Assembly: GCA_032718475.1 (NCBI GenBank)
Contig: JAUCBJ010009095.1
Span: 25,511-89,510, forward strand
Direction: 5' to 3'
From: Nemertoderma westbladi
Lineage: Eukaryota > Animalia > Xenacoelomorpha
Length of the DNA: 64,000 bases
Shown here in pieces: positions 1 through 35,886 of this stretch (positions within the stretch are counted from its first letter, which is position 1; every line of letters begins with the position of its first letter). The position numbers were made by a program, and so were the translations under genes. The notes beneath the pieces are model-generated. The model saw nothing but the letters and a program-made list of their open reading frames with translations, searched no databases and was not told the DNA's origin.

Positions 1-3000
1 TAACAACTCCAGTAATAATAACAAATTCTTACCCCTCAATGTAACAACTCCAGTAATAATAACAAATTCTTACCCCTCAATGTAACAACTCCAGTAATAA
101 TAACAAATTCTTACCCCTCAATGTAACAACTCCAGTAATAATAACAAATTCTTACCCCTCAATGTAACAACTCCAGTAATAATAACAAATTCTTACCCCT
201 CAATGTAACAACTCCAGTAATAATAACAAATTCTTACCCCTCAATGTAACAACTCCAGTAATAATAACAAATTCTTACCCCTCAATGTAACAACTCCAGT
301 AATAATAACAAATTCTTACCCATCAATGTAACAACTCCAGTAATAATAACAAATTCTTACCCCTCAATGTAACAACTCCAGTAATAATAACAAATTCTTA
401 CCCCTCAATATAACAACTCCAGTAATAATAACAAATTCTTACCCCTCAATGTAACAACTCCAGTAATAATAACAAATTCTTACCCCACAATGTAACAACT
501 CCAGTAATAATAACAAATTCTTACCCCTCAATGTAACAACTCCAGTAATAATAACAAATTCTTACCCCACAATGTAACAACTCCAGTAATAATAACAAAT
601 TCTTACCCCTCAATGTAACAACTCCAGTAATAATAACAAATTCTTACCCCTCAATGTAACAACTCCAGTAATAATAACAAATTCTTACCCCTCAATGTAA
701 CTAACAACTCCAGTAATAATAACAAATTCTTACCCCTCAATGTAACAACTCCAGTAATAATAACAAATTCTTACCCCTCCATGTAACAACTCCAGTAATA
801 ATAACAAATTCTTACCCCTCAATGTAACAACTCCAGTAATAATAACAAATTCTTACCCCTCAATATAACAACTCCAGTAATAATAACAAATTCTTACCCC
901 TCAATGTAACAACTCCAGTAATAATAACAAATTCTTACCCCTCAATATAACAACTCCAGTAATAATAACAAATTCTTACCCCTCAATGTAACAACTCCAG
1001 TAATAATAACAAATTCTTACCCCTCAATGTAACAACTCCAGTAATAATAACAAATTCTTACCCCTCCATGTAACAACTCCAGTAATAATAACAAATTCTT
1101 ACCCATCAATGTAACAACTCCAATAATAATAACAAATTCTTACCCCTCAATATAACAACTCCAGTAATAATAACAAATTCTTACCCCTCAATGTAACAAC
1201 TCCAGTAATAATAACAAATTCTTACCCCTCCATGTAACAACTCCAGTAATAATAACAAATTCTTACCCATCAATGTAACAACTCCAATAATAATAACAAA
1301 TTCTTACCCCTCAATGTAACAACTCCAGTAATAATAACAAATTCTTACCCCTCCATGTAACAACTCCAGTAATAATAACAAATTCTTACCCCTCAATGTA
1401 ACAACTCCAGTAATAATAACAAATTCTTACCCTCAATATAACAACTCCAATAATAATAACAAATTCTTACCCCTCAATATAACAACTCCAGTAATAATAA
1501 CAAATTCTTACCCCTCCATGTAACAACTCCAGTAATAATAACAAATTCTTACCCTCAATATAACAACTCCAATAATAATAACAAATTCTTACCCCTCAAT
1601 ATAACAACTCCAGTAATAATAACAAATTCTTACCCCTCAATGTAACAACTCCAGTAATAATAACAAATTCTTACCCCTCAATGTAACAACTCCAGTAATA
1701 ATAACAAATTCTTACCCTCAATATAACAACTCCAGTAATAATAACAAATTCTTACCCCTCAATATAACAACTCCAGTAATAATAACAAATTCTTACCCCT
1801 CAATGTAACAACTCCAGTAATAATAACAAATTCTTACCCCTCAATATAACAACTCCAGTAATAATAACAAATTCTTACCCCTCAATGTAACAACTCCAGT
1901 AATAATAACAAATTCTTACCCCTCAATGTAACAACTCCAGTAATAATAACAAATTCTTACCCCTCAATATAACAACTCCAGTAATAATAACAAATTCTTA
2001 CCCCTCAATGTAACAACTCCAGTAATAATAACAAATTCTTACCCCTCAATGTAACAACTCCAGTAATAATAACAAATTCTTACCCCTCAATGTAACAACT
2101 CCAGTAATAATAACAAATTCTTACCCCTCAATGTAACAACTCCAGTAATAATAACAAATTCTTACCCCTCAATGTAACAACTCCAGTAATAATAACAAAT
2201 TCTTACCCCTCAATGTAACAACTCCAGTAATAATAACAAATTCTTACCCCTCAATGTAACAACTCCAGTAATAATAACAAATTCTTACCCCTCAATGTAA
2301 CAACTCCAGTAATAATAACAAATTCTTACCCCTCAATGTAACAACTCCAGTAATAATAACAAATTCTTACCCCTCAATGTAACAACTCCAGTAATAATAA
2401 CAAATTCTTACCCCTCAATGTAACAACTCCAGTAATAATAACAAATTCTTACCCATCAATGTAACAACTCCAGTAATAATAACAAATTCTTACCCCTCAA
2501 TATAACAACTCCAGTAATAATAACAAATTCTTACCCATCAATATAACAACTCCAGTAATAATAACAAATTCTTACCCCTCAATGTAACAACTCCAGTAAT
2601 AATAACAAATTCTTACCCCTCAATGTAACAACTCCAGTAATAATAACAAATTCTTACCCCTCAATGTAACAACTCCAGTAATAATAACAAATTCTTACCC
2701 CTCAATGTAACAACTCCAGTAATAATAACAAATTCTTACCCCTCAATGTAACAACTCCAGTAATAATAACAAATTCTTACCCCTCAATGTAACAACTCCA
2801 GTAATAATAACAAATTCTTACCCCTCAATGTAACAACTCCAGTAATAATAACAAATTCTTACCCCTCAATATAACAACTCCAGTAATAATAACAAATTTT
2901 TACCCCTCAATATAACAACTCCAGTAATAATAACAAATTCTTACCCATCAATATAACAACTCCAGTAATAATAACAAATTCTTACCCCTCAATGTAACAA

Positions 3001-6000
3001 CTCCAGTAATAATAACAAATTCTTACCCCTCAATGTAACAACTCCAGTAATAATAACAAATTCTTACCCCTCAATGTAACAACTCCAGTAATAATAACAA
3101 ATTCTTACCCCTCAATGTAACAACTCCAGTAATAATAACAAATTCTTACCCCTCAATGTAACAACTCCAGTAATAATAACAAATTCTTACCCCTCAATGT
3201 AACAACTCCAGTAATAATAACAAATTCTTACCCCTCAATGTAACAACTCCAGTAATAATAACAAATTCTTACCCCTCAATGTAACAACTCCAGTAATAAT
3301 AACAAATTCTTACCCCTCCATGTAACAACTCCAGTAATAATAACAAATTCTTACCCATCAATGTAACAACTCCAGTAATAATAACAAATTCTTACCCCTC
3401 AATGTAACAACTCCAGTAATAATAACAAATTCTTACCCCTCAATGTAACAACTCCAGTAATAATAACAAATTCTTACCCCTCAATGTAACAACTCCAGTA
3501 ATAATAACAAATTCTTACCCCTCAATGTAACAACTCCAGTAATAATAACAAATTCTTACCCCTCAATGTAACAACTCCAGTAATAATAACAAATTCTTAC
3601 CCCTCCATGTAACAACTCCAGTAATAATAACAAATTCTTACCCCTCAATGTAACAACTCCAGTAATAATAACAAATTCTTACCCCTCAATGTAACAACTC
3701 CAGTAATAATAACAAATTCTTACCCCTCAATGTAACAACTCCAGTAATAATAACAAATTCTTACCCATCAATGTAACAACTCCAATAATAATAACAAATT
3801 CTTACCCCTCAATGTAACAACTCCAGTAATAATAACAAATTCTTACCCCTCAATGTAACAACTCCAGTAATAATAACAAATTCTTACCCCTCCATGTAAC
3901 AACTCCAGTAATAATAACAAATTCTTACCCCTCAATGTAACAACTCCAGTAATAATAACAAATTCTTACCCCTCAATGTAACAACTCCAGTAATAATAAC
4001 AAATTCTTACCCCTCAATGTAACAACTCCAGTAATAATAACAAATTCTTACCCCTCAATGTAACAACTCCAGTAATAATAACAAATTCTTACCCCTCAAT
4101 GTAACAACTCCAGTAATAATAACAAATTCTTACCCATCAATGTAACAACTCCAGTAATAATAACAAATTCTTACCCATCAATGTAACAACTCCAGTAATA
4201 ATAACAAATTCTTACCCATCAATGTAACAACTCCAGTAATAATAACAAATTCTTACCCATCAATGTAACAACTCCAATAATAATAACAAATTCTTACCCC
4301 TCAATGTAACAACTCCAGTAATAATAACAAATTCTTACCCATCAATGTAACAACTCCAGTAATAATAACAAATTCTTACCCATCAATGTAACAACTCCAG
4401 TAATAATAACAAATTCTTACCCATCAATGTAACAACTCCAGTAATAATAACAAATTCTTACCCCTCAATGTAACAACTCCAGTAATAATAACAAATTCTT
4501 ACCCCTCAATGTAACAACTCCAGTAATAATAACAAATTCTTACCCATCAATGTAACAACTCCAATAATAATAACAAATTCTTACCCCTCAATGTAACAAC
4601 TCCAGTAATAATAACAAATTCTTACCCCTCAATGTAACAACTCCAGTAATAATAACAAATTCTTACCCATCAATGTAACAACTCCAATAATAATAACAAA
4701 TTCTTACCCCTCAATGTAACAACTCCAGTAATAATAACAAATTCTTACCCCTCAATGTAACAACTCCAGTAATAATAACAAATTCTTACCCCTCAATGTA
4801 ACAACTCCAGTAATAATAACAAATTCTTACCCCTCAATGTAACAACTCCAGTAATAATAACAAATTCTTACCCATCAATGTAACAACTCCAGTAATAATA
4901 ACAAATTCTTACCCCTCAATATAACAACTCCAGTAATAATAACAAATTCTTACCCCTCAATATAACAACTCCAGTAATAATAACAAATTCTTACCCCTCA
5001 ATATAACAACTCCAGTAATAATAACAAATTCTTACCCATCAATGTAACAACTCCAATAATAATAACAAATTCTTACCCCTCAATATAACAACTCCAGTAA
5101 TAATAACAAATTCTTACCCCTCAATGTAACAACTCCAGTAATAATAACAAATTCTTACCCCTCCATGTAACAACTCCAGTAATAATAACAAATTCTTACC
5201 CATCAATGTAACAACTCCAATAATAATAACAAATTCTTACCCCTCAATGTAACAACTCCAGTAATAATAACAAATTCTTACCCCTCAATGTAACTAACAA
5301 CTCCAGTAATAATAACAAATTCTTACCCCTCAATGTAACAACTCCAGTAATAATAACAAATTCTTACCCATCAATGTAACAACTCCAGTAATAATAACAA
5401 ATTCTTACCCCTCAATGTAACAACTCCAGTAATAATAACAAATTCTTACCCCACAATGTAACAACTCCAGTAATAATAACAAATTCTTACCCATCAATGT
5501 AACAACTCCAATAATAATAACAAATTCTTACCCCTCAATATAACAACTCCAGTAATAATAACAAATTCTTACCCCTCAATGTAACAACTCCAGTAATAAT
5601 AACAAATTCTTACCCATCAATGTAACAACTCCAATAATAATAACAAATTCTTACCCCTCAATGTAACAACTCCAGTAATAATAACAAATTCTTACCCCTC
5701 AATGTAACAACTCCAGTAATAATAACAAATTCTTACCCCTCAATGTAACAACTCCAGTAATAATAACAAATTCTTACCCCTCAATGTAACAACTCCAGTA
5801 ATAATAACAAATTCTTACCCCTCAATGTAACAACTCCAGTAATAATAACAAATTCTTACCCCTCAATGTAACAACTCCAGTAATAATAACAAATTCTTAC
5901 CCCTCAATGTAACTAACAACTCCAGTAATAATAACAAATTCTTACCCCTCAATGTAACAACTCCAGTAATAATAACAAATTCTTACCCATCAATGTAACA

Positions 6001-9000
6001 ACTCCAGTAATAATAACAAATTCTTACCCCTCAATGTAACAACTCCAGTAATAATAACAAATTCTTACCCCTCAATGTAACAACTCCAGTAATAATAACA
6101 AATTCTTACCCCTCAATGTAACAACTCCAGTAATAATAACAAATTCTTACCCCTCAATGTAACAACTCCAGTAATAATAACAAATTCTTACCCCTCAATG
6201 TAACAACTCCAGTAATAATAACAAATTCTTACCCCTCAATGTAACAACTCCAGTAATAATAACAAATTCTTACCCCTCAATGTAACAACTCCAGTAATAA
6301 TAACAAATTCTTACCCCTCAATGTAACAACTCCAGTAATAATAACAAATTCTTACCCCTCAATGTAACAACTCCAGTAATAATAACAAATTCTTACCCCT
6401 CAATGTAACAACTCCAGTAATAATAACAAATTCTTACCCCTCAATGTAACAACTCCAGTAATAATAACAAATTCTTACCCCTCAATGTAACAACTCCAGT
6501 AATAATAACAAATTCTTACCCCTCAATGTAACAACTCCAGTAATAATAACAAATTCTTACCCCTCAATGTAACAACTCCAGTAATAATAACAAATTCTTA
6601 CCCCTCAATGTAACAACTCCAGTAATAATAACAAATTCTTACCCCTCAATGTAACAACTCCAGTAATAATAACAAATTCTTACCCCTCAATGTAACAACT
6701 CCAGTAATAATAACAAATTCTTACCCCTCAATGTAACAACTCCAGTAATAATAACAAATTCTTACCCCTCAATGTAACAACTCCAGTAATAATAACAAAT
6801 TCTTACCCCTCAATGTAACAACTCCAGTAATAATAACAAATTCTTACCCCTCAATGTAACAACTCCAGTAATAATAACAAATTCTTACCCCTCAATGTAA
6901 CAACTCCAGTAATAATAACAAATTCTTACCCCTCAATGTAACAACTCCAGTAATAATAACAAATTCTTACCCCTCAATGTAACAACTCCAGTAATAATAA
7001 CAAATTCTTACCCCTCAATGTAACAACTCCAGTAATAATAACAAATTCTTACCCCTCAATGTAACAACTCCAGTAATAATAACAAATTCTTACCCCTCAA
7101 TGTAACAACTCCAGTAATAATAACAAATTCTTACCCCTCAATGTAACAACTCCAGTAATAATAACAAATTCTTACCCCTCAATGTAACAACTCCAGTAAT
7201 AATAACAAATTCTTACCCCTCAATGTAACAACTCCAGTAATAATAACAAATTCTTACCCCTCAATGTAACAACTCCAGTAATAATAACAAATTCTTACCC
7301 CTCAATGTAACAACTCCAGTAATAATAACAAATTCTTACCCCTCAATGTAACAACTCCAGTAATAATAACAAATTCTTACCCCTCAATGTAACAACTCCA
7401 GTAATAATAACAAATTCTTACCCCTCAATGTAACAACTCCAGTAATAATAACAAATTCTTACCCCTCAATGTAACAACTCCAGTAATAATAACAAATTCT
7501 TACCCCTCAATGTAACAACTCCAGTAATAATAACAAATTCTTACCCCTCAATGTAACAACTCCAGTAATAATAACAAATTCTTACCCCTCAATGTAACAA
7601 CTCCAGTAATAATAACAAATTCTTACCCCTCAATGTAACAACTCCAGTAATAATAACAAATTCTTACCCCTCAATGTAACAACTCCAGTAATAATAACAA
7701 ATTCTTACCCCTCAATGTAACAACTCCAGTAATAATAACAAATTCTTACCCCTCAATGTAACAACTCCAGTAATAATAACAAATTCTTACCCCTCAATGT
7801 AACAACTCCAGTAATAATAACAAATTCTTACCCCTCAATGTAACAACTCCAGTAATAATAACAAATTCTTACCCCTCAATGTAACAACTCCAGTAATAAT
7901 AACAAATTCTTACCCCTCAATGTAACAACTCCAGTAATAATAACAAATTCTTACCCCTCAATGTAACAACTCCAGTAATAATAACAAATTCTTACCCCTC
8001 AATGTAACAACTCCAGTAATAATAACAAATTCTTACCCCTCAATGTAACAACTCCAGTAATAATAACAAATTCTTACCCCTCAATGTAACAACTCCAGTA
8101 ATAATAACAAATTCTTACCCCTCAATGTAACAACTCCAGTAATAATAACAAATTCTTACCCCTCAATGTAACAACTCCAGTAATAATAACAAATTCTTAC
8201 CCCTCAATGTAACAACTCCAGTAATAATAACAAATTCTTACCCCTCAATGTAACAACTCCAGTAATAATAACAAATTCTTACCCCTCAATGTAACAACTC
8301 CAGTAATAATAACAAATTCTTACCCCTCAATGTAACAACTCCAGTAATAATAACAAATTCTTACCCCTCAATGTAACAACTCCAGTAATAATAACAAATT
8401 CTTACCCCTCAATGTAACAACTCCAGTAATAATAACAAATTCTTACCCCTCAATGTAACAACTCCAGTAATAATAACAAATTCTTACCCCTCAATGTAAC
8501 AACTCCAGTAATAATAACAAATTCTTACCCCTCAATGTAACAACTCCAGTAATAATAACAAATTCTTACCCCTCAATGTAACAACTCCAGTAATAATAAC
8601 AAATTCTTACCCCTCAATGTAACAACTCCAGTAATAATAACAAATTCTTACCCCTCAATGTAACAACTCCAGTAATAATAACAAATTCTTACCCCTCAAT
8701 GTAACAACTCCAGTAATAATAACAAATTCTTACCCCTCAATGTAACAACTCCAGTAATAATAACAAATTCTTACCCCTCAATGTAACAACTCCAGTAATA
8801 ATAACAAATTCTTACCCCTCAATGTAACAACTCCAGTAATAATAACAAATTCTTACCCCTCAATGTAACAACTCCAGTAATAATAACAAATTCTTACCCC
8901 TCAATGTAACAACTCCAGTAATAATAACAAATTCTTACCCCTCAATGTAACAACTCCAGTAATAATAACAAATTCTTACCCCTCAATGTAACAACTCCAG

Positions 9001-12000
9001 TAATAATAACAAATTCTTACCCCTCAATGTAACAACTCCAGTAATAATAACAAATTCTTACCCCTCAATGTAACAACTCCAGTAATAATAACAAATTCTT
9101 ACCCCTCAATGTAACAACTCCAGTAATAATAACAAATTCTTACCCCTCAATGTAACAACTCCAGTAATAATAACAAATTCTTACCCCTCAATGTAACAAC
9201 TCCAGTAATAATAACAAATTCTTACCCCTCAATGTAACAACTCCAGTAATAATAACAAATTCTTACCCCTCAATGTAACAACTCCAGTAATAATAACAAA
9301 TTCTTACCCCTCAATGTAACAACTCCAGTAATAATAACAAATTCTTACCCATCAATGTAACAACTCCAGTAATAATAACAAATTCTTACCCCTCAATGTA
9401 ACAACTCCAGTAATAATAACAAATTCTTACCCCTCAATGTAACAACTCCAGTAATAATAACAAATTCTTACCCCTCAATGTAACAACTCCAGTAATAATA
9501 ACAAATTCTTACCCCTCAATGTAACAACTCCAGTAATAATAACAAATTCTTACCCCTCAATGTAACAACTCCAGTAATAATAACAAATTCTTACCCCTCA
9601 ATGTAACAACTCCAGTAATAATAACAAATTCTTACCCCTCAATGTAACAACTCCAGTAATAATAACAAATTCTTACCCCTCAATGTAACAACTCCAGTAA
9701 TAATAACAAATTCTTACCCCTCAATGTAACAACTCCAGTAATAATAACAAATTCTTACCCCTCAATGTAACAACTCCAGTAATAATAACAAATTCTTACC
9801 CCTCAATGTAACAACTCCAGTAATAATAACAAATTCTTACCCCTCAATGTAACAACTCCAGTAATAATAACAAATTCTTACCCCTCAATGTAACAACTCC
9901 AGTAATAATAACAAATTCTTACCCCTCAATGTAACAACTCCAGTAATAATAACAAATTCTTACCCCTCAATGTAACAACTCCAGTAATAATAACAAATTC
10001 TTACCCCTCAATGTAACAACTCCAGTAATAATAACAAATTCTTACCCCTCAATGTAACAACTCCAGTAATAATAACAAATTCTTACCCCTCAATGTAACA
10101 ACTCCAGTAATAATAACAAATTCTTACCCCTCAATGTAACAACTCCAGTAATAATAACAAATTCTTACCCCTCAATGTAACAACTCCAGTAATAATAACA
10201 AATTCTTACCCCTCAATGTAACAACTCCAGTAATAATAACAAATTCTTACCCCTCAATGTAACAACTCCAGTAATAATAACAAATTCTTACCCCTCAATG
10301 TAACAACTCCAGTAATAATAACAAATTCTTACCCCTCAATGTAACAACTCCAGTAATAATAACAAATTCTTACCCCTCAATGTAACAACTCCAGTAATAA
10401 TAACAAATTCTTACCCCTCAATGTAACAACTCCAGTAATAATAACAAATTCTTACCCCTCAATGTAACAACTCCAGTAATAATAACAAATTCTTACCCCT
10501 CAATGTAACAACTCCAGTAATAATAACAAATTCTTACCCCTCAATGTAACAACTCCAGTAATAATAACAAATTCTTACCCATCAATGTAACAACTCCAGT
10601 AATAATAACAAATTCTTACCCCTCAATGTAACAACTCCAGTAATAATAACAAATTCTTACCCCTCAATGTAACAACTCCAGTAATAATAACAAATTCTTA
10701 CCCCTCAATGTAACAACTCCAGTAATAATAACAAATTCTTACCCCTCAATGTAACAACTCCAGTAATAATAACAAATTCTTACCCCTCAATGTAACAACT
10801 CCAGTAATAATAACAAATTCTTACCCATCAATGTAACAACTCCAGTAATAATAACAAATTCTTACCCCTCAATGTAACAACTCCAGTAATAATAACAAAT
10901 TCTTACCCCTCAATGTAACAACTCCAGTAATAATAACAAATTCTTACCCATCAATGTAACAACTCCAGTAATAATAACAAATTCTTACCCCTCAATGTAA
11001 CAACTCCAGTAATAATAACAAATTCTTACCCCTCAATGTAACAACTCCAGTAATAATAACAAATTCTTACCCATCAATGTAACAACTCCAGTAATAATAA
11101 CAAATTCTTACCCCTCAATGTAACAACTCCAGTAATAATAACAAATTCTTACCCCTCAATGTAACAACTCCAGTAATAATAACAAATTCTTACCCCTCAA
11201 TGTAACAACTCCAGTAATAATAACAAATTCTTACCCCTCAATGTAACAACTCCAGTAATAATAACAAATTCTTACCCCTCAATGTAACAACTCCAGTAAT
11301 AATAACAAATTCTTACCCCTCAATGTAACAACTCCAGTAATAATAACAAATTCTTACCCCTCAATGTAACAACTCCAGTAATAATAACAAATTCTTACCC
11401 CTCAATGTAACAACTCCAGTAATAATAACAAATTCTTACCCCTCAATGTAACAACTCCAGTAATAATAACAAATTCTTACCCCTCAATGTAACAACTCCA
11501 GTAATAATAACAAATTCTTACCCCTCAATGTAACAACTCCAGTAATAATAACAAATTCTTACCCCTCAATGTAACAACTCCAGTAATAATAACAAATTCT
11601 TACCCCTCAATGTAACAACTCCAGTAATAATAACAAATTCTTACCCCTCAATGTAACAACTCCAGTAATAATAACAAATTCTTACCCCTCAATGTAACAA
11701 CTCCAGTAATAATAACAAATTCTTACCCCTCAATGTAACAACTCCAGTAATAATAACAAATTCTTACCCCTCAATGTAACAACTCCAGTAATAATAACAA
11801 ATTCTTACCCATCAATGTAACAACTCCAGTAATAATAACAAATTCTTACCCCTCAATGTAACAACTCCAGTAATAATAACAAATTCTTACCCCTCAATGT
11901 AACAACTCCAGTAATAATAACAAATTCTTACCCCTCAATGTAACAACTCCAGTAATAATAACAAATTCTTACCCCTCAATGTAACAACTCCAGTAATAAT

Positions 12001-21000: not shown

Positions 21001-24000
21001 AACTAACAACTCCAGTAATAATAACAAATTCTTACCCCACAATGTAACAACTCCAGTAATAATAACAAATTCTTACCCCTCAATGTAACAACTCCAGTAA
21101 TAATAACAAATTCTTACCCCTCAATGTAACAACTCCAGTAAAGATAACAAATTCTTACCCCTCAATGTAACAACTCCAGTAATAATAACAAATTCTTACC
21201 CCTCAATGTAACAACTCCAGTAATAATAACAAATTCTTACCCCTCAATGTAACAACTCCAGTAATAATAACAAATTCTTACCCCTCAATGTAACAACTCC
21301 AGTAATAATAACAAATTCTTACCCCTCAATGTAACAACTCCAGTAATAATAACAAATTCTTACCCCTCAATGTAACAACTCCAGTAATAATAACAAATTC
21401 TTACCCCTCAATGTAACAACTCCAGTAATAATAACAAATTCTTACCCCTCAATGTAACAACTCCAGTAATAATAACAAATTCTTACCCCTCAATGTAACA
21501 ACTCCAGTAATAATAACAAATTCTTACCCCACAATGTAACAACTCCAGTAATAATAACAAATTCTTACCCCTCAATGTAACAACTCCAGTAATAATAACA
21601 AATTCTTACCCCTCAATGTAACAACTCCAGTAATAATAACAAATTCTTACCCCTCAATGTAACAACTCCAGTAATAATAACAAATTCTTACCCCTCAATG
21701 TAACAACTCCAGTAATAATAACAAATTCTTACCCCTCAATGTAACAACTCCAGTAATAATAACAAATTCTTACCCCTCAATGTAACAACTCCAGTAATAA
21801 TAACAAATTCTTACCCCTCAATGTAACAACTCCAATAATAATAACAAATTCTTACCCCTCAATGTAACAACTCCAGTAATAATAACAAATTCTTACCCCT
21901 CAATGTAACTAACAACTCCAGTAATAATAACAAATTCTTACCCCACAATGTAACAACTCCAGTAATAATAACAAATTCTTACCCCTCAATGTAACAACTC
22001 CAGTAATAATAACAAATTCTTACCCCTCAATGTAACAACTCCAGTAATAATAACAAATTCTTACCCCTCAATGTAACAACTCCAGTAATAATAACAAATT
22101 CTTACCCCTCAATATAACAACTCCAGTAATAATAACAAATTCTTACCCCTCAATGTAACAACTCCAATAATAATAACAAATTCTTACCCCTCAATGTAAC
22201 AACTCCAGTAATAATAACAAATTCTTACCCCTCAATGTAACAACTCCAGTAATAATAACAAATTCTTACCCCTCAATGTAACAACTCCAGTAATAATAAC
22301 AAATTCTTACCCCTCAATGTAACAACTCCAGTAATAATAACAAATTCTTACCCCTCAATATAACAACTCCAGTAATAATAACAAATTCTTACCCCTCAAT
22401 ATAACAACTCCAGTAATAATAACAAATTCTTACCCCTCAATGTAACAACTCCAATAATAATAACAAATTCTTACCCCTCAATGTAACAACTCCAGTAATA
22501 ATAACAAATTCTTACCCCTCAATGTAACTAACAACTCCAGTAATAATAACAAATTCTTACCCCACAATGTAACAACTCCAGTAATAATAACAAATTCTTA
22601 CCCCTCAATGTAACAACTCCAGTAATAATAACAAATTCTTACCCCTCAATGTAACAACTCCAGTAATAATAACAAATTCTTACCCCTCAATGTAACAACT
22701 CCAGTAATAATAACAAATTCTTACCCCACAATGTAACAACTCCAGTAATAATAACAAATTCTTACCCCTCAATGTAACAACTCCAGTAATAATAACAAAT
22801 TCTTACCCCTCAATGTAACAACTCCAGTAATAATAACAAATTCTTACCCCTCAATGTAACAACTCCAGTAATAATAACAAATTCTTACCCCTCAATGTAA
22901 CAACTCCAGTAATAATAACAAATTCTTACCCCTCAATGTAACAACTCCAGTAATAATAACAAATTCTTACCCCTCAATGTAACAACTCCAATAATAATAA
23001 CAAATTCTTACCCCTCAATGTAACAACTCCAGTAATAATAACAAATTCTTACCCATCAATGTAACAACTCCAATAATAATAACAAATTCTTACCCATCAA
23101 TGTAACTAACAACTCCAGTAATAATAACAAATTCTTACCCATCAATGTAACAACTCCAATAATAATAACAAATTCTTACCCCTCAATGTAACAACTCCAA
23201 TAATAATAACAAATTCTTACCCCTCCATGTAACAACTCCAGTAATAATAACAAATTCTTACCCATCAATGTAACAACTCCAATAATAATAACAAATTCTT
23301 ACCCCTCCATGTAACAACTCCAGTAATAATAACAAATTCTTACCCCTCAATGTAACAACTCCAGTAATAATAACAAATTCTTACCCATCAATGTAACAAC
23401 TCCAATAATAATAACAAATTCTTACCCATCAATGTAACTAACAACTCCAGTAATAATAACAAATTCTTACCCCTCAATGTAACAACTCCAGTAATAATAA
23501 CAAATTCTTACCCCACAATGTAACAACTCCAGTAATAATAACAAATTCTTACCCCTCAATATAACAACTCCAGTAATAATAACAAATTCTTACCCCTCAA
23601 TGTAACAACTCCAGTAATAATAACAAATTCTTACCCCTCAATGTAACAACTCCAGTAATAATAACAAATTCTTACCCATCAATGTAACAACTCCAGTAAT
23701 AATAACAAATTCTTACCCATCAATGTAACAACTCCAATAATAATAACAAATTCTTACCCCTCAATGTAACAACTCCAATAATAATAACAAATTCTTACCC
23801 ATCAATGTAACTAACAACTCCAGTAATAATAACAAATTCTTACCCCTCAATGTAACAACTCCAGTAATAATAACAAATTCTTACCCCTCAATGTAACAAC
23901 TCCAGTAATAATAACAAATTCTTACCCATCAATGTAACAACTCCAATAATAATAACAAATTCTTACCCATCAATGTAACTAACAACTCCAGTAATAATAA

Positions 24001-27000
24001 CAAATTCTTACCCCTCAATGTAACAACTCCAGTAATAATAACAAATTCTTACCCCTCAATATAACAACTCCAGTAATAATAACAAATTCTTACCCATCAA
24101 TGTAACAACTCCAATAATAATAACAAATTCTTACCCCTCAATGTAACAACTCCAATAATAATAACAAATTCTTACCCATCAATGTAACAACTCCAATAAT
24201 AATAACAAATTCTTACCCATCAATGTAACTAACAACTCCAATAATAATAACAAATTCTTACCCCTCCATGTAACAACTCCAGTAATAATAACAAATTCTT
24301 ACCCGACAATGTAACAACTCCAATAATAATAACAAATTCTTACCCATCAATGTAACTAACAACTCCAGTAATAATAACAAATTCTTACCCCTCAATGTAA
24401 CAACTCCAGTAATAATAACAAATTCTTACCCCTCAATATAACAACTCCAGTAATAATAACAAATTCTTACCCATCAATGTAACAACTCCAATAATAATAA
24501 CAAATTCTTACCCCTCAATGTAACAACTCCAGTAATAATAACAAATTCTTACCCCTCAATATAACAACTCCAGTAATAATAACAAATTCTTACCCATCAA
24601 TGTAACAACTCCATAATAATAACAAATTCTTACCCATCAATGTAACAACTCCAGTAATAATAACAAATTCTTACCCCTCAATGTAACAACTCCAGTAATA
24701 ATAACAAATTCTTACCCCACAATGTAACAACTCCAGTAATAATAACAAATTCTTACCCCTCAATGTAACAACTCCAGTAATAATAACAAATTCTTACCCC
24801 ACAATGTAACAACTCCAGTAATAATAACAAATTCTTACCCCTCAATGTAACAACTCCAGTAATAATAACAAATTCTTACCCCACAATGTAACAACTCCAG
24901 TAATAATAACAAATTCTTACCCCTCAATATAACAACTCCAGTAATAATAACAAATTCTTACCCCTCAATGTAACAACTCCAGTAATAATAACAAATTCTT
25001 ACCCCACAATGTAACAACTCCAGTAATAATAACAAATTCTTACCCATCAATGTAACAACTCCAATAATAATAACAAATTCTTACCCCTCAATGTAACAAC
25101 TCCAATAATAATAACAAATTCTTACCCCTCCATGTAACAACTCCAGTAATAATAACAAATTCTTACCCATCAATGTAACAACTCCAATAATAATAACAAA
25201 TTCTTACCCCTCCATGTAACAACTCCAGTAATAATAACAAATTCTTACCCATCAATGTAACAACTCCAATAATAATAACAAATTCTTACCCCTCAATGTA
25301 ACAACTCCAGTAATAATAACAAATTCTTACCCCTCAATGTAACAACTCCAGTAATAATAACAAATTCTTACCCCACAATGTAACAACTCCAGTAATAATA
25401 ACAAATTCTTACCCCTCAATGTAACAACTCCAGTAATAATAACAAATTCTTACCCCTCAATGTAACAACTCCAGTAATAATAACAAATTCTTACCCCTCA
25501 ATGTAACAACTCCAGTAATAATAACAAATTCTTACCCCTCAATGTAACAACTCCAGTAATAATAACAAATTCTTACCCCTCAATGTAACAACTCCAGTAA
25601 TAATAACAAATTCTTACCCCTCAATGTAACAACTCCAGTAATAATAACAAATTCTTACCCCTCAATGTAACAACTCCAGTAATAATAACAAATTCTTACC
25701 CCTCAATGTAACAACACCAGTAATAATAACAAATTCTTACCCATCAATGTAACAACTCCAGTAATAATAACAAATTCTTACCCCTCAATGTAACAACACC
25801 AGTAATAATAACAAATTCTTACCCATCAATGTAACAACTCCAGTAATAATAACAAATTCTTACCCATCAATGTAACAACTCCAGTAATAATAACAAATTC
25901 TTACCCCTCAATGTAACAACTCCAGTAATAATAACAAATTCTTACCCCTCAATGTAACAACTCCAGTAATAATAACAAATTCTTACCCCTCAATGTAACA
26001 ACTCCAGTAATAATAACAAATTCTTACCCATCAATGTAACAACTCCAGTAATAATAACAAATTCTTACCCCTCAATGTAACAACTCCAGTAATAATAACA
26101 AATTCTTACCCATCAATGTAACAACTCCAGTAATAATAACAAATTCTTACCCCTCAATGTAACAACTCCAGTAATAATAACAAATTCTTACCCATCAATG
26201 TAACAACTCCAGTAATAATAACAAATTCTTACCCCTCAATGTAACAACTCCAGTAATAATAACAAATTCTTACCCCTCAATGTAACAACTCCAGTAATAA
26301 TAACAAATTCTTACCCCTCAATGTAACAACTCCAGTAATAATAACAAATTCTTACCCCTCAATGTAACAACTCCAGTAATAATAACAAATTCTTACCCCT
26401 CAATGTAACAACTCCAGTAATAATAACAAATTCTTACCCCTCAATGTAACAACTCCAGTAATAATAACAAATTCTTACCCCTCAATGTAACAACTCCAGT
26501 AATAATAACAAATTCTTACCCCTCAATGTAACAACTCCAGTAATAATAACAAATTCTTACCCCTCAATGTAACAACTCCAGTAATAATAACAAATTCTTA
26601 CCCCTCAATGTAACAACTCCAGTAATAATAACAAATTCTTACCCCTCAATGTAACAACTCCAGTAATAATAACAAATTCTTACCCATCAATGTAACAACT
26701 CCAGTAATAATAACAAATTCTTACCCCTCAATGTAACAACTCCAGTAATAATAACAAATTCTTACCCCTCAATGTAACAACTCCAGTAATAATAACAAAT
26801 TCTTACCCCTCAATGTAACAACTCCAGTAATAATAACAAATTCTTACCCCTCAATGTAACAACTCCAGTAATAATAACAAATTCTTACCCCTCAATGTAA
26901 CAACTCCAGTAATAATAACAAATTCTTACCCCTCAATGTAACAACTCCAGTAATAATAACAAATTCTTACCCCTCAATGTAACAACTCCAGTAATAATAA

Positions 27001-30000
27001 CAAATTCTTACCCCTCAATGTAACAACTCCAGTAATAATAACAAATTCTTACCCCTCAATGTAACAACTCCAGTAATAATAACAAATTCTTACCCATCAA
27101 TGTAACAACTCCAGTAATAATAACAAATTCTTACCCCTCAATGTAACAACTCCAGTAATAATAACAAATTCTTACCCCTCAATGTAACAACTCCAGTAAT
27201 AATAACAAATTCTTACCCCTCAATGTAACAACTCCAGTAATAATAACAAATTCTTACCCATCAATGTAACAACTCCAGTAATAATAACAAATTCTTACCC
27301 CTCAATGTAACAACTCCAGTAATAATAACAAATTCTTACCCCTCAATGTAACAACTCCAGTAATAATAACAAATTCTTACCCCTCAATGTAACAACTCCA
27401 GTAATAATAACAAATTCTTACCCCTCAATGTAACAACTCCAGTAATAATAACAAATTCTTACCCCTCAATGTAACAACTCCAGTAATAATAACAAATTCT
27501 TACCCCTCAATGTAACAACTCCAGTAATAATAACAAATTCTTACCCCTCAATGTAACAACTCCAGTAATAATAACAAATTCTTACCCCTCAATGTAACAA
27601 CTCCAGTAATAATAACAAATTCTTACCCCTCAATGTAACAACTCCAGTAATAATAACAAATTCTTACCCCTCAATGTAACAACTCCAGTAATAATAACAA
27701 ATTCTTACCCCTCAATGTAACAACTCCAGTAATAATAACAAATTCTTACCCATCAATGTAACAACTCCAGTAATAATAACAAATTCTTACCCCTCAATGT
27801 AACAACTCCAGTAATAATAACAAATTCTTACCCCTCAATATAACAACTCCAGTAATAATAACAAATTCTTACCCCTCAATGATAACAACTCCAGTAATAA
27901 TAACAAATTCTTACCCCTCAATGACTAACAACTCCAGTAATAATAACAAATTCTTACCCCTCAATGTAACAACTCCAGTAATAATAACAAATTCTTACCC
28001 CTCAATGTAACAACTCCAGTAATAATAACAAATTCTTACCCCTCAATGTAACAACTCCAGTAATAATAACAAATTCTTACCCATCAATGTAACAACTCCA
28101 GTAATAATAACAAATTCTTACCCCTCAATGTAACAACTCCAGTAATAATAACAAATTCTTACCCCTCAATGTAACAACTCCAGTAATAATAACAAATTCT
28201 TACCCCTCAATGTAACAACTCCAGTAATAATAACAAATTCTTACCCCTCAATGTAACAACTCCAGTAATAATAACAAATTCTTACCCCTCAATGTAACAA
28301 CTCCAGTAATAATAACAAATTCTTACCCCTCAATGTAACAACTCCAGTAATAATAACAAATTCTTACCCCTCAATGTAACAACTCCAGTAATAATAACAA
28401 ATTCTTACCCCTCAATGTAACAACTCCAGTAATAATAACAAATTCTTACCCCTCAATGTAACAACTCCAGTAATAATAACAAATTCTTACCCCTCAATGT
28501 AACAACTCCAGTAATAATAACAAATTCTTACCCATCAATGTAACAACTCCAGTAATAATAACAAATTCTTACCCCTCAATGTAACAACTCCAGTAATAAT
28601 AACAAATTCTTACCCCTCAATGTAACAACTCCAGTAATAATAACAAATTCTTACCCCTCAATGTAACAACTCCAGTAATAATAACAAATTCTTACCCCTC
28701 AATGTAACAACTCCAGTAATAATAACAAATTCTTACCCCTCAATGTAACAACTCCAGTAATAATAACAAATTCTTACCCCTCAATGTAACAACTCCAGTA
28801 ATAATAACAAATTCTTACCCCTCAATGTAACAACTCCAGTAATAATAACAAATTCTTACCCCTCAATGTAACAACTCCAGTAATAATAACAAATTCTTAC
28901 CCCTCAATGTAACAACTCCAGTAATAATAACAAATTCTTACCCCTCAATGTAACAACTCCAGTAATAATAACAAATTCTTACCCCTCAATGTAACAACTC
29001 CAGTAATAATAACAAATTCTTACCCCTCAATGTAACACAACTCCAGTAATAATAACAAATTCTTACCCATCAATGTAACAACTCCAGTAATAATAACAAA
29101 TTCTTACCCATCAATGTAACAACTCCAGTAATAATAACAAATTCTTACCCCTCAATGTAACAACTCCAGTAATAATAACAAATTCTTACCCCTCAATGTA
29201 ACAACTCCAGTAATAATAACAAATTCTTACCCCTCAATGTAACAACTCCAGTAATAATAACAAATTCTTACCCCTCAATGTAACAACTCCAGTAATAATA
29301 ACAAATTCTTACCCCACAATGTAACAACTCCAGTAATAATAACAAATTCTTACCCCTCAATGTAACAACTCCAGTAATAATAACAAATTCTTACCCCTCA
29401 ATGTAACAACTCCAGTAATAATAACAAATTCTTACCCCTCAATGTAACAACTCCAGTAATAATAACAAATTCTTACCCATCAATGTAACAACTCCAGTAA
29501 TAATAACAAATTCTTACCCCTCAATGTAACAACTCCAGTAATAATAACAAATTCTTACCCCTCAATGTAACAACTCCAGTAATAATAACAAATTCTTACC
29601 CCTCAATGTAACAACTCCAGTAATAATAACAAATTCTTACCCCTCAATGTAACAACTCCAGTAATAATAACAAATTCTTACCCCTCAATGTAACAACTCC
29701 AGTAATAATAACAAATTCTTACCCCTCAATGTAACAACTCCAGTAATAATAACAAATTCTTACCCCTCAATGTAACAACTCCAGTAATAATAACAAATTC
29801 TTACCCCTCAATGTAACAACTCCAGTAATAATAACAAATTCTTACCCCTCAATGTAACAACTCCAGTAATAATAACAAATTCTTACCCCTCAATGTAACA
29901 ACTCCAGTAATAATAACAAATTCTTACCCCTCAATGTAACAACTCCAGTAATAATAACAAATTCTTACCCATCAATGTAACAACTCCAGTAATAATAACA

Positions 30001-33000
30001 AATTCTTACCCCTCAATGTAACAACTCCAGTAATAATAACAAATTCTTACCCCTCAATGTAACAACTCCAGTAATAATAACAAATTCTTACCCCTCAATG
30101 TAACAACTCCAGTAATAATAACAAATTCTTACCCCTCAATGTAACAACTCCAGTAATAATAACAAATTCTTACCCCTCAATGTAACAACTCCAGTAATAA
30201 TAACAAATTCTTACCCCTCAATGTAACAACTCCAGTAATAATAACAAATTCTTACCCCTCAATGTAACAACTCCAGTAATAATAACAAATTCTTACCCCT
30301 CAATGTAACAACTCCAGTAATAATAACAAATTCTTACCCCTCAATGTAACAACTCCAGTAATAATAACAAATTCTTACCCCTCAATGTAACTAACAACTC
30401 CAGTAATAATAACAAATTCTTACCCCTCAATGTAACAACTCCAGTAATAATAACAAATTCTTACCCCTCAATGTAACAACTCCAGTAATAATAACAAATT
30501 CTTACCCATCAATGTAACAACTCCAGTAATAATAACAAATTCTTACCCCTCAATGTAACAACTCCAGTAATAATAACAAATTCTTACCCCTCAATGTAAC
30601 AACTCCAGTAATAATAACAAATTCTTACCCCTCAATGTAACAACTCCAGTAATAATAACAAATTCTTACCCCTCAATGTAACAACTCCAGTAATAATAAC
30701 AAATTCTTACCCCTCAATGTAACAACTCCAGTAATAATAACAAATTCTTACCCATCAATGATAACAACTCCAGTAATAATAACAAATTCTTACCCCTCAA
30801 TGTAACAACTCCAGTAATAATAACAAATTCTTACCCCTCAATGTAACAACTCCAGTAATAATAACAAATTCTTACCCCTCAATGTAACAACTCCAGTAAT
30901 AATAACAAATTCTTACCCCTCAATGTAACAACTCCAGTAATAATAACAAATTCTTACCCCTCAATGTAACAACTCCAGTAATAATAACAAATTCTTACCC
31001 CTCAATGTAACAACTCCAGTAATAATAACAAATTCTTACCCATCAATGTAACAACTCCAGTAATAATAACAAATTCTTACCCCTCAATGTAACAACTCCA
31101 GTAATAATAACAAATTCTTACCCATCAATGTAACAACTCCAGTAATAATAACAAATTCTTACCCCTCAATGTAACAACTCCAGTAATAATAACAAATTCT
31201 TACCCATCAATGATAACAACTCCAGTAATAATAACAAATTCTTACCCCTCAATGTAACAACTCCAGTAATAATAACAAATTCTTACCCATCAATGATAAC
31301 AACTCCAGTAATAATAACAAATTCTTACCCATCAATGTAACAACTCCAGTAATAATAACAAATTCTTACCCCTCAATGTAACAACTCCAGTAATAATAAC
31401 AAATTCTTACCCCTCAATGTAACAACTCCAGTAATAATAACAAATTCTTACCCCTCAATGTAACAACTCCAGTAATAATAACAAATTCTTACCCCTCAAT
31501 GTAACAACTCCAGTAATAATAACAAATTCTTACCCATCAATGATAACAACTCCAGTAATAATAACAAATTCTTACCCCTCAATGTAACAACTCCAGTAAT
31601 AATAACAAATTCTTACCCCTCAATGTAACAACTCCAGTAATAATAACAAATTCTTACCCCTCAATGTAACAACTCCAGTAATAATAACAAATTCTTACCC
31701 CTCAATGTAACAACTCCAGTAATAATAACAAATTCTTACCCCTCAATGTAACAACTCCAGTAATAATAACAAATTCTTACCCCTCAATGTAACAACTCCA
31801 GTAATAATAACAAATTCTTACCCATCAATATAACAACTCCAGTAATAATAACAAATTCTTACCCCTCAATGTAACAACTCCAGTAATAATAACAAATTCT
31901 TACCCATCAATATAACAACTCCAGTAATAATAACAAATTCTTACCCCTCAATGTAACAACTCCAGTAATAATAACAAATTCTTACCCATCAATATAACAA
32001 CTCCAGTAATAATAACAAATTCTTACCCCTCAATGTAACAACTCCAGTAATAATAACAAATTCTTACCCCTCAATGTAACAACTCCAGTAATAATAACAA
32101 ATTCTTACCCCTCAATGTAACAACTCCAGTAATAATAACAAATTCTTACCCATCAATGTAACTAACAACTCCAGTAATAATAACAAATTCTTACCCATCA
32201 ATGTAACTAACAACTCCAGTAATAATAACAAATTCTTACCCCTCAATGTAACAACTCCAGTAATAATAACAAATTCTTACCCATCAATGTAACTAACAAC
32301 TCCAGTAATAATAACAAATTCTTACCCCTCAATGTAACAACTCCAGTAATAATAACAAATTCTTACCCATCAATATAACAACTCCAGTAATAATAACAAA
32401 TTCTTACCCCTCAATGTAACAACTCCAGTAATAATAACAAATTCTTACCCATCAATATAACAACTCCAGTAATAATAACAAATTCTTACCCATCAATATA
32501 ACAACTCCAGTAATAATAACAAATTCTTACCCCTCAATGTAACAACTCCAGTAATAATAACAAATTCTTACCCATCAATGTAACTAACAACTCCAGTAAT
32601 AATAACAAATTCTTACCCATCAATGTAACTAACAACTCCAGTAATAATAACAAATTCTTACCCATCAATATAACAACTCCAGTAATAATAACAAATTCTT
32701 ACCCCTCAATGTAACAACTCCAGTAATAATAACAAATTCTTACCCATCAATGTAACTAACAACTCCAGTAATAATAACAAATTCTTACCCATCAATGTAA
32801 CTAACAACTCCAGTAATAATAACAAATTCTTACCCCTCAATGTAACAACTCCAGTAATAATAACAAATTCTTACCCCTCAATGTAACAACTCCAGTAATA
32901 ATAACAAATTCTTACCCCTCAATGTAACAACTCCAGTAATAATAACAAATTCTTACCCCTCAATGTAACAACTCCAGTAATAATAACAAATTCTTACCCC

Positions 33001-35459
33001 TCAATGTAACAACTCCAGTAATAATAACAAATTCTTACCCCACAATGTAACAACTCCAGTAATAATAACAAATTCTTACCCGTCAATGTAACAACTCCAG
33101 TAATAATAACAAATTCTTACCCATCAATATAACAACTCCAGTAATAATAACAAATTCTTACCCCTCAATGTAACAACTCCAGTAATAATAACAAATTCTT
33201 ACCCATCAATATAACAACTCCAGTAATAATAACAAATTCTTACCCCTCAATGTAACAACTCCAGTAATAATAACAAATTCTTACCCATCAATATAACAAC
33301 TCCAGTAATAATAACAAATTCTTACCCATCAATATAACAACTCCAGTAATAATAACAAATTCTTACCCATCAATATAACAACTCCAGTAATAATAACAAA
33401 TTCTTACCCATCAATGTAACTAACAACTCCAGTAATAATAACAAATTCTTACCCCTCAATATAACAACTCCAGTAATAATAACAAATTCTTACCCATCAA
33501 TGTAACTAACAACTCCAGTAATAATAACAAATTCTTACCCATCAATGTAACTAACAACTCCAGTAATAATAACAAATTCTTACCCCTCAATGTAACAACT
33601 CCAGTAATAATAACAAATTCTTACCCCTCAATGTAACAACTCCAGTAATAATAACAAATTCTTACCCCTCAATGTAACAACTCCAGTAATAATAACAAAT
33701 TCTTACCCCTCAATGTAACAACTCCAGTAATAATAACAAATTCTTACCCCTCAATGTAACAACTCCAGTAATAATAACAAATTCTTACCCCTCAATGTAA
33801 CAACTCCAGTAATAATAACAAATTCTTACCCATCAATATAACAACTCCAGTAATAATAACAAATTCTTACCCCTCAATGTAACAACTCCAGTAATAATAA
33901 CAAATTCTTACCCATCAATATAACAACTCCAGTAATAATAACAAATTCTTACCCCTCAATGTAACAACTCCAGTAATAATAACAAATTCTTACCCATCAA
34001 TATAACAACTCCAGTAATAATAACAAATTCTTACCCCTCAATGTAACAACTCCAGTAATAATAACAAATTCTTACCCCTCAATGTAACAACTCCAGTAAT
34101 AATAACAAATTCTTACCCCTCAATGTAACAACTCCAGTAATAATAACAAATTCTTACCCCTCAATGTAACAACTCCAGTAATAATAACAAATTCTTACCC
34201 ATCAATGTAACTAACAACTCCAGTAATAATAACAAATTCTTACCCCTCAATGTAACAACACCAGTAATAATAACAAATTCTTACCCATCAATGTAACTAA
34301 CAACTCCAGTAATAATAACAAATTCTTACCCCTCAATGTAACAACTCCAGTAATAATAACAAATTCTTACCCCTCAATGTAACAACTCCAGTAATAATAA
34401 CAAATTCTTACCCCTCAATGTAACAACTCCAGTAATAATAACAAATTCTTACCCATCAATGTAACAACTCCAGAAATAATAACAAATTCTTACCCATCAA
34501 TGTAACAACTCCAGTAATAATAACAAATTCTTACCCCTCAATGTAACAACTCCAGTAATAACAACAAATTCTTACCCCACAATGTAACAACTCCAGTAAT
34601 AATAACAAATTCTTACCCCTCAATGTAACAACTCCAGTAATAATAACAAATTCTTACCCCTCAATGTAACAACTCCAGTAATAATAACAAATTCTTACCC
34701 CTCAATGTAACAACTCCAGTAATAATAACAAATTCTTACCCCTCAATGTAACAACTCCAGTAATAATAACAAATTCTTACCCCTCCATGTAACAACTCCA
34801 GTAATAATAACAAATTCTTACCCCTCAATGTAACAACTCCAGTAATAATAACAAATTCTTACCCCTCCATGTAACAACTCCAGTAATAATAACAAATTCT
34901 TACCCCTCAATGTAACAACTCCAGTAATAATAACAAATTCTTACCCCTCAATGTAACAACTCCAGTAATAATAACAAATTCTTACCCCTCAATGTAACAA
35001 CTCCAGTAATAATAACAAATTCTTACCCCTCAATATAACAACTCCAGTAATAATAACAAATTCTTACCCCTCCATGTAACAACTCCAGTAATAATAACAA
35101 ATTCTTACCCCTCAATGTAACAACTCCAGTAATAATAACAAATTCTTACCCCTCAATGTAACAACTCCAGTAATAATAACAAATTCTTACCCCTCAATGT
35201 AACAACTCCAGTAATAATAACAAATTCTTACCCATCAATGTAACAACTCCAATAATAATAACAAATTCTTACCCCTCAATGTAACAACTCCAATAATAAT
35301 AACAAATTCTTACCCCTCAATGTAACAACTCCAGTAATAATAACAAATTCTTACCCCTCAATATAACAACTCCAGTAATAATAACAAATTCTTACCCCTC
35401 AATGTAACAACTCCAATAATAATAACAAATTCTTACCCCTCAATGTAACAACTCCAATA
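1..35459. repeat. 41-bp tandem satellite, consensus TAACAACTCCAGTAATAATAACAAATTCTTACCCCTCAATG, about 860 copies visible, continuing past the left edge of the window
   Basis: Directly visible head-to-tail 41-bp period with a few recurrent variants (CCCA/CCCC, TCAATA/TCAATG, CCAATA/CCAGTA, CCACAA, CTCCAT, +CTAA). Copy number is length divided by 41. Confidence 0.99.
13943..14042. other. Assembly gap (100 N) inside the 41-bp array; true array length unknown
   Basis: Run of exactly 100 N with the same repeat in the same orientation on both sides. Confidence 0.99.
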
Positions 35460-35524
35460 CAACAAGATATATCAGTCCCAATTTGCACTGATTCATTTAG
35501 TGGTTTATCTACAGACCAAATTAC
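35437..35524 (-). CDS. Host-gene internal exon E (88 nt, phase 0 to 1): VIWSVDKPLNESVQIGTDISCCIGVVTLR(G), VWA7-like C-terminal SCC motif
   Basis: Minus strand: acceptor ttttttatttcag|GTAATT at 35525/35524, donor AGGG|gtaaga at 35437/35436. Frame is open and continues exon D in phase. Confidence 0.85.
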
Positions 35525-35709: not shown

Positions 35710-35886
35710 CTGGGTTTGTACCCCGTTTATTTCCTTTGAGATAGCCTTCAAACCTCCGCTGTCTGCGAAGGTTGCGTTCACGGTCCATCTCGCACCCAAA
35801 CATATTTCAGTTTGGTTGTAATCCTTACAATCGGTTGCGTATGTTGAAGTCAATAATTCACATTTAGGACCAAAGCGATCAGGATT
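35710..35886 (-). CDS. Host-gene internal exon D (177 nt, phase 0 to 0): NPDRFGPKCELLTSTYATDCKDYNQTEICLGARWTVNATFADSGGLKAISKEINGVQTQ
   Basis: Acceptor gtattatag|AAT, donor CAG|gttata, 59 open codons. The D-x3-P-x-C ... C ... W-x-V-x-A-x3-D-x-GG pattern recalls the Cys-containing C-terminal domain of VWA7 proteins (recognised from memory, no search run). Confidence 0.85.

What the first reader, a model, noticed from the sequence alone, without database searches (positions are those of the whole stretch)
1..35524. A >35-kb satellite made from a gene's exon-intron junction: about 860 tandem copies of the 5' splice site
Seen: on the minus strand the exon ends ...TGTATTGGAGTTGTTACATTGAGGG|gtaagaatttgttattatta. 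The 41-bp unit is the last ~21-24 exonic nt plus the first ~17-20 intronic nt, joined through a TAT(T) microhomology. The array runs straight into the exon, so its first unit is coding (IGVVTLRG) and every unit carries GG|GTAAGA. Using any later donor would read ...RGKNLLLLLELLH-TGA, with the stop at 35401-35399 in the second unit. Inference: a splice junction amplified into satellite DNA, making a giant intron in which the spliceosome must choose the first of hundreds of identical donors. Decoy use would give a truncated or NMD-targeted isoform, and the nascent RNA could sequester U1 snRNP or loop out as in satellite-filled giant introns.
Basis: partly seen in the sequence, partly recalled or inferred. 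Interest (0 to 1): 0.82.

Follow-up and report, generated by a model that had tools for sequence, protein, structure and literature searches.

The report
Giant splice-donor "mirage" in animal intron
The end of a predicted exon of an animal gene and the splice signal behind it are repeated head-to-tail about 860 times (over 35 kb) into what is likely the next intron; the cell likely still uses the first signal, so this is a very large but likely harmless example of a repeat type already known from lancelets and human genes.

Summary
Positions 1-35459 are a 41-bp array of about 860 units. Each unit is the last 23 nt of a predicted minus-strand exon (35524-35437) plus the first 18 intron nt, and 857 of 860 donors read GG|GTAAGA. 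Four more exons upstream join with it into a stop-free 226-codon frame; VWA7 identity is unproven. Contigs of two studies cover the exon/array edge. Read depth (about 330 copies in X1, about 40 in X3) shows no large pool of the 41-mer elsewhere and hints at length variation or an inflated assembly. No RNA run was listed, so donor choice is untested. The build is known: amphioxus 'mirages' and human F7, 6-16, CBS, LMNB2 and PDGF minisatellites (up to 25 pseudo-sites), where the first donor wins or dominates. The transcribed strand has no AG|GT site and the consensus unit has no YAG acceptor, so only the first few donors can compete. The scan has found this before: 17 unchecked notes on other pieces of this genome and 7 on other genomes. 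Verdict: new, very large member of a known kind, most likely neutral. The open question is genome-wide.

The parts
1..35459 (-). 41-bp tandem array (about 860 units in the window, continues left of it); unit = last 23 nt of exon B + first 18 nt of the intron; 29 unit types, the commonest 622 of 858 parsed units
13943..14042 (.). 100-N assembly gap inside the array; about 522 units lie right of it, about 340 left of it
35437..35524 (-). Predicted exon B, 88 nt, phase 0 to 1; its last 23 nt are the exon part of the repeat unit
   Evidence: no RNA evidence
35431..35436 (-). Predicted authentic 5' splice site GTAAGA, the best-scoring of the six candidate donors of this gene that I scored (4.8 bits against -1.6 to 2.3)
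   Evidence: generic matrix, not trained on this species
35399..35401 (-). In-frame TGA reached if any later donor is used or the intron is retained
35710..35886 (-). Predicted exon A2 (Cys-rich, phase 0 to 0); its 3' end is either 35710 or 35722, both in phase
   Evidence: three alleles at 35726-35728 in X2/X3 keep the frame open (read off by hand)
36323..36491 (-). Predicted exon A (phase 2 to 0), likely second half of an Ig-like domain
   Evidence: Atlas lead 'VWA7 Ig-like' at 0.76, below the tool's reliability range
39499..39650 (-). Predicted exon C (phase 0 to 2), likely first half of the Ig-like domain; donor chosen by eye for phase
   Evidence: Atlas recognition 2647, Ig-like DUF7507/DUF11 leads at 0.76-0.80; not picked by the chain search
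39880..39984 (-). Predicted exon D (phase 0 to 0)
   Evidence: not picked by the chain search
20047..20252 (-). Two variant units whose donor reads GTAAGT (better U1 match; first bases at 20252 and 20047), without an acceptor upstream

Best explanation
This is a 35-kb array of a 41-bp unit spanning a predicted exon end and its splice donor; it likely arose by a local tandem duplication of that junction, was likely amplified by ordinary tandem-repeat turnover, and is likely spliced out from the first donor, so it is likely a tolerated giant 'mirage' without a function of its own. Shown: the unit's make-up (23 + 18 nt), about 860 donors, the stop behind later donors, no AG|GT and no AATAAA/ATTAAA on the transcribed strand, clustering of variants in blocks, and read depth no higher than the window accounts for. 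Inferred step 1: a 41-nt duplication (slippage or break repair) copied the exon end and donor into the intron; it left the coding exon intact, so selection barely saw it. Inferred step 2: unequal exchange or slippage expanded and homogenised the array; the exon-type base survives mostly at the edge and in blocks. Inferred step 3: the exon's own acceptor defines an 88-nt exon with the first donor; later donors have no acceptor of their own and lose, as shown for human F7. Leakage to donors 2-3 would give a short truncated protein.
For: Array and unit make-up. Five GT-AG exons join into 226 codons with no stop; a generic chain search finds three of them, including B, with 1 of 300 shuffles as high; exon GC 0.35-0.44 against 0.28-0.33 in the three short introns. 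Unique contigs of X2 and X3 run from the exon into the first unit (to 35430 and 35427). Depth: 17,250 for the main array contig against 52.1 single-copy in X1, about 331 copies, while the window alone holds about 641 of those 31-mers; no 14-mer of the unit occurs elsewhere in the window. No sign of selection on the donors: 13 distinct substitutions, none at GT, which is expected with probability 0.52 by chance. Exon-type base in 3 of the first 5 units against 43 of 858 overall, as described for mirage edges (PMC3087553, section 16 passages). Precedent for first-donor use: PMC1557585 abstract, Introduction and Discussion; PMC3087553 and PMC3902484 passages.
Against: No RNA was available, so neither the exon nor the donor choice is shown. 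The gene has no homologue in my searches, so it is not shown that the exon sequence is older than the array; the edge-unit signal does not give the direction. Two of my five exons (C, D) were not picked by the chain search, and the region for that search was chosen after I had seen the exons. Published cases have at most 25 pseudo-sites, and in 6-16 and CBS two pseudo-sites are also used; extrapolating to 860 copies is untested. The far end of the array and the next exon are outside the window.
Confidence: 0.75

Rival explanations
1. The array is a regulatory device: decoy donors divert a regulated share of transcripts into truncated or NMD-targeted isoforms, or the nascent RNA binds U1 snRNP in bulk or delays transcription, and the host keeps it for that.
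For: All 860 donors keep GT and 857 keep the full GTAAGA. Any later donor gives a stop. Human 6-16 and CBS use two pseudo-sites. One unchecked note on another locus of this genome reports splicing from a variant copy inside its array (e1-10614089).
Against: Intact GT is what chance predicts in so young an array (p 0.52). Donors 2 and 3 would escape the 50-55-nt NMD rule unless more introns follow. Copy number seems to differ about eightfold between runs (331 against 41), if that is not library bias. At least 17 notes describe the same build in unrelated genes of this genome, and most of those with RNA report normal splicing (unchecked).
Confidence: 0.07
2. The satellite came first, or exon B is the last coding exon: the gene reads into the array and ends at 35399, or a pre-existing repeat supplied the exon's last codons and its donor.
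For: The frame stays open for 12 more codons into the array and stops at 35401-35399. No downstream exon is visible and no homologue confirms the exon's 3' end.
Against: The donor at 35436 is the strongest of the six scored in this gene. The array has no AATAAA or ATTAAA on the transcribed strand in 35 kb. The 41-mer shows no large pool elsewhere in the genome. By recall only, VWA7-type proteins continue for some residues beyond this Cys-Cys segment.
Confidence: 0.08
3. The array is real but its size is inflated by assembly: the two sides of the N gap overlap or come from two haplotypes, so one allele carries about 500 units rather than over 860.
For: 100-N gap at 13943-14042. Depth in X1 gives about 331 copies of the main 31-mers per single-copy equivalent; the window has 370 right of the gap and 270 left of it, mean 320.
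Against: The variant order left of the gap is not a copy of the order right of it: only two 5-unit variant motifs recur, each within one side. One long plus one short allele (about 640 + 40, halved) fits the same depth. At least 522 units are contiguous with the exon in any case. This rival changes the size, not the kind.
Confidence: 0.1

Closest known systems
Amphioxus 'mirage' minisatellites (Adh3, globins BflGb6 and BflGb9, troponin C, PGBD5). PMC3087553: 6 passages seen; PMC3902484: 1 passage seen; the original Adh3 paper was not read
   Same: Tandem copies of the host gene's own exon-intron boundary that keep splice signals; unit within the reported 10-160 bp; edge units less homogenised; length differs between haplotypes there and perhaps here.
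   Different: About 860 units and over 35 kb here against 3-6 units in BflGb6. Normal splicing was seen there by RT-PCR; it is untested here.
Human junction-spanning VNTRs: F7 intron 7 (37 bp, 5-9 copies), 6-16 (25 pseudo-sites), CBS intron 13 (15-20), LMNB2 (10-15), PDGF intron 4 (16-18). PMC1557585: abstract, Introduction and Discussion read
   Same: First monomer spans the exon end, so the donor is repeated exactly in the intron; similar unit length; donor-side geometry is the same.
   Different: More than 30 times the largest copy number listed there (25). The unit here holds 23 exon nt against 4 in F7. Donor use was measured there (first only in F7, LMNB2, PDGF; two more in 6-16 and CBS) and not here.
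Recursive splicing (ratchet points) in long introns; recalled, no call
   Same: A very long intron with many internal donor sequences.
   Different: Needs an acceptor abutting a donor (YAG|GT). The array has 0 AGGT and 0 YAGGT on the transcribed strand.
Satellite-filled giant introns of Drosophila Y-loop genes; recalled, no call (a search for it with five terms gave 0 papers)
   Same: An intron made almost wholly of tandem repeats.
   Different: Those are megabase-sized simple satellites in germline genes with dedicated RNA-binding proteins; here the unit comes from the gene's own junction, the visible size is tens of kb, and nothing is known of expression.

Membership tests
Mirage / junction-spanning minisatellite | Tandem unit spans an exon-intron boundary of the host gene | tested here: met
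   23 exon nt + 18 intron nt; the exon is predicted, not shown by RNA
Mirage / junction-spanning minisatellite | Copies keep the splice signal | tested here: met
   857 GTAAGA + 2 GTAAGT + 1 GTAAAA of 860
Mirage / junction-spanning minisatellite | Minisatellite-sized unit (10-160 bp reported) | tested here: met
   41 bp; range from PMC3087553
Mirage / junction-spanning minisatellite | Locus-specific, not a dispersed satellite family | tested here: met
Mirage / junction-spanning minisatellite | Length instability between alleles | tested here: inconclusive
   About 331 (X1), 244-7500 (X2, bounds from summed depth), about 41 (X3); X2 and X3 share a sample label, so library bias is possible
Mirage / junction-spanning minisatellite | mRNA is spliced at the authentic site | not testable with these tools
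   No run on record as RNA holds the stretch
Recursive-splicing ladder | Acceptor abutting donor (YAG|GT) in the units | tested here: not met
   0 AGGT, 0 YAGGT, 0 CAG, 29 TAG (insertion variants only) on the transcribed strand
VWA7-like protein (host gene) | Match to the Pfam VWA7 Ig-like model or to VWA7 proteins | tested here: inconclusive
   0 of 5 single exons hit a VWA7 model at E up to 10; homologue searches blank or chance; Atlas lead 0.76. The joined protein was not searched
   Both would lie outside the window; no genome is held

The most novel reading that the evidence does not exclude
This genome has a mutational process that targets exon edges and blows them up into 10-60-kb satellites within a few generations, with alleles of this one locus ranging from about 40 to over 600 donors. 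The process would be tied to splicing or to exon chromatin, would be a main driver of intron size, and would give natural allelic series for testing first-come donor choice against hundreds of identical decoys.
Probability: 0.2. Interest if true: 0.62.

Novelty: new member of a known kind. Interest (0 to 1): 0.22.

Why it matters
As a single locus it adds little: the build is named and its splicing was dissected in human F7. Its value is scale. If the first donor still wins against about 859 identical copies, first-come or exon-definition choice holds at a size more than 30 times beyond the cases listed in PMC1557585, and a long/short heterozygote would test the cost of such an intron directly. 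The larger question is why one genome carries so many giant arrays at exon edges; PMC3087553 calls the mechanism unclear. That needs a genome-wide enrichment test, which one window cannot give.

Tried and rejected
No whole genome is held, so uniqueness of the 41-mer and enrichment at splice sites could not be tested directly. No RNA holder was listed; this is no evidence on expression. X5 gave no cover of the array or the exons and X4 only one 71-nt array contig; neither is used as evidence. Looking for other flanks of the 41-mer through loose contig ends had no power: even the array's own far flank did not appear. Homologue searches: exon A 0 of 10 candidates, exon C 0 of 24, exon A2 0 of 8. 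The phmmer search with exon A gave 2 hits, both bacterial-type repeat proteins (Flg_new_2; SHIRT/MucBP) whose scores add up over repeats; rejected as chance. Pfam on 5 single exons: one irrelevant weak hit, DUF3696 at E 0.24. Atlas hits all scored under 0.9. RNA folding of 35480-35150: no structure beyond shuffles (z 0.24), so masking of decoys by structure is unsupported. Matching the rarer X1 contigs to variant units gave inconsistent depth per copy (about 27, 33 and 62 under my tentative assignments), so I do not claim that the array is on one haplotype only. Longer higher-order repeats were not found. My first guess that exon A splices straight to exon B was dropped when exon A2 appeared between them. 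Paper searches for a published giant or genome-wide case: 4 listed, none relevant by title and abstract start; 2, both used; 2, both used; 0 each; 8 listed, none opened. These narrow searches of an open-access library do not show absence from print. Supplements of PMC3087553 were not opened.
Full report
Observation. TRF reports one array at 1-35456 with period 41, 861.3 copies and 97% matches. It runs off the left edge of the window and holds a 100-N gap at 13943-14042. On the minus strand the array begins inside a predicted 88-nt exon, B (35524-35437), which has a T-rich CAG acceptor and the donor GG|GTAAGA. Exon B and the first intronic unit share exactly 23 terminal nt, so the unit is 23 exon nt plus 18 intron nt. 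There are 860 donors including the authentic one: 857 GTAAGA, all after GG, 2 GTAAGT and 1 GTAAAA. Every later donor brings in the TGA at 35401-35399. The microhomology cannot be checked, because the far end of the array is outside the window.

Is the exon real? I found four more minus-strand exon candidates: D 39984-39880, C 39650-39499, A 36491-36323 and A2 35886-35722 (or 35710). With B they join, all GT-AG, into 226 codons without a stop. The donors of C and A2 were chosen by eye. As a check, a chain search with a generic splice matrix over the two unique segments picked A, A2 and B in matching phase (score 19.9; 1 of 300 local shuffles as high; opposite strand 0), but not C and D. Exon GC is 0.35-0.44 against 0.28-0.33 in the three short introns. 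Three alleles at 35726-35728 in runs X2 and X3 change codons without a stop, and no indel is listed in exons B, A2 or A. The gene's identity is open. Pfam gave no relevant hit for 5 of 5 single exons, three homologue searches were blank, and the two phmmer hits are repeat proteins and count as chance. The Atlas gave weak Ig-like leads, among them a VWA7 Ig-like cluster at 0.76. The layout, an Ig-like domain followed by a Cys-rich segment, resembles the C-terminal part of VWA7 by recall only.

Is the array real and local? No genome is held. Six runs were listed, three hold the stretch, from two studies, none on record as RNA; X1 and X2 may be the source of this DNA. I laid 5 of the 6 runs. Unique contigs of X2 and X3 run from the exons into the first unit, to 35430 and 35427. 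In X1 the main array contig has depth 17,250 against 52.1 for the unique part, about 331 copies. The window holds about 641 of those 31-mers, 370 right of the gap and 270 left (I assumed which base the contig's single difference is). So the genome holds no large pool of this 41-mer beyond this locus. The factor of two fits one long and one short allele, or two haplotypes joined at the gap, or under-sequencing; I cannot tell these apart. In X3 the array collapses to one 71-nt contig at depth 657.3 against 16.2, about 41 copies. X2 lies between about 244 and 7500, from a summed depth of 339,775 over up to 850 contigs. X2 and X3 share a sample label, so the difference may be library bias, though X3 carries the allele that is minor in X2 at 35726-35728.

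Evolution of the array. There are 29 unit types; the commonest makes up 622 of 858 parsed units, and variants cluster in blocks. The mean difference from the consensus is 0.30 nt per 41-nt unit (814 units), so the array is young or well homogenised. The exon's own base at unit position 21 is found in 3 of the first 5 units but only 43 of 858 overall. This is the edge effect described for amphioxus mirages; it does not show which came first. None of 13 distinct substitutions hits the GT, which chance gives with probability 0.52, so there is no sign of selection for or against the decoys.

How it likely works. On the transcribed strand the array has no AGGT, no CAG, no AATAAA or ATTAAA, and TAG only in 29 places from insertion variants. 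A recursive-splicing ladder is thus not met, and the later donors have no acceptor of their own. By exon definition (established knowledge) only donors within about 300 nt of exon B's acceptor compete, giving exons of 88, 129, 170, 211, 252 or 293 nt. For human F7 intron 7, a 37-bp VNTR of the same build, 50 constructs showed that the most upstream functional donor is used and identical downstream ones are not (PMC1557585; abstract, Introduction and Discussion read). The same Introduction lists 6-16 and CBS, where two pseudo-sites are also used, and LMNB2 and PDGF, where only the authentic site is. I infer first-donor use here with possible leakage to donors 2-3. The stop lies 3 nt and 44 nt before those junctions, so these isoforms would escape the 50-55-nt NMD rule unless more introns follow. 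The first units fold no better than shuffles (z 0.24). None of this is shown by RNA for this locus.

Comparison. PMC3087553 (6 passages) names tandem duplications of exon-intron boundaries 'mirages', gives units of 10-160 bp, haplotype length differences, normal splicing and an unclear mechanism. PMC3902484 (1 passage) adds troponin C and PGBD5. This array meets the four sequence features that I could test; allele instability is inconclusive and normal splicing untestable. It differs in size: about 860 donors against at most 25 in the cases I read. Seven paper searches showed no published case of this size, but they were narrow. The scan's own notes show the same build in 17 other findings of this genome (of 79 windows with notes; each look-up shows 8) and in 7 findings of other genomes, with arrays up to 63 kb and 2,100 copies. 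These notes are unchecked and selected by the same eye, so they are not evidence of enrichment. They gave me the term 'mirage' in the same turn as my own search found the two papers. They do mean that this locus is neither unique nor the largest.

Verdict. Best reading: a giant, likely neutral mirage (0.75). Rivals: regulatory decoy array (0.07), satellite-first or terminal exon (0.08), size inflated by assembly (0.10). Novelty: new member of a known kind; interest 0.22. The boldest reading left open is a process that targets exon edges across this genome and makes very different allele lengths (0.2; interest 0.62 if true).

Noticed in passing
window 41711-58109: BEL/Pao-type LTR retrotransposon (DUF1759, Peptidase_A17, Integrase_H2C2, DUF5641) on the + strand, LTRs 41711-42849 and 56563-58109 at 97.6-99.2% identity, 5-bp target duplication TAATC. 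The pol frame is in pieces (breaks near 50150-50240 and at 52466), and the right LTR has an insertion of about 390 bp near 57045-57433.
   Followed up: partly
window 54948-55784 and 56219-56536: Extra + strand open stretches between the integrase and the right LTR of that element, with no good Pfam match; possibly a decayed additional gene.
   Followed up: no
window 40192-41710 and 58110-63443: A 19-bp satellite (about 80 + 281 copies) split by the LTR element, with all G on one strand in runs of five (GC skew down to -1.0). It begins about 200 nt from predicted exon D and is not a junction repeat at that end; its other end abuts a further repeat at 63444. The gene's intron upstream of exon D would exceed 20 kb.
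   Followed up: partly
window 36558-38100: Decayed non-LTR retrotransposon on the minus strand inside the predicted C-A intron (RVT_1, E 1.7e-7); very high copy in reads (summed depth over 300,000 at 36676-36700 in X1-X3).
   Followed up: partly
window 35726-35728: Three alleles at three neighbouring bases inside predicted exon A2 in run X2 (depths 21.2, 12.9, 8.5) and one of them in X3: X2 holds more than two haplotypes, and one codon has three states.
   Followed up: partly
window 38555-38881: 15-bp minisatellite of about 22 copies in the predicted C-A intron, not at an exon edge.
   Followed up: no
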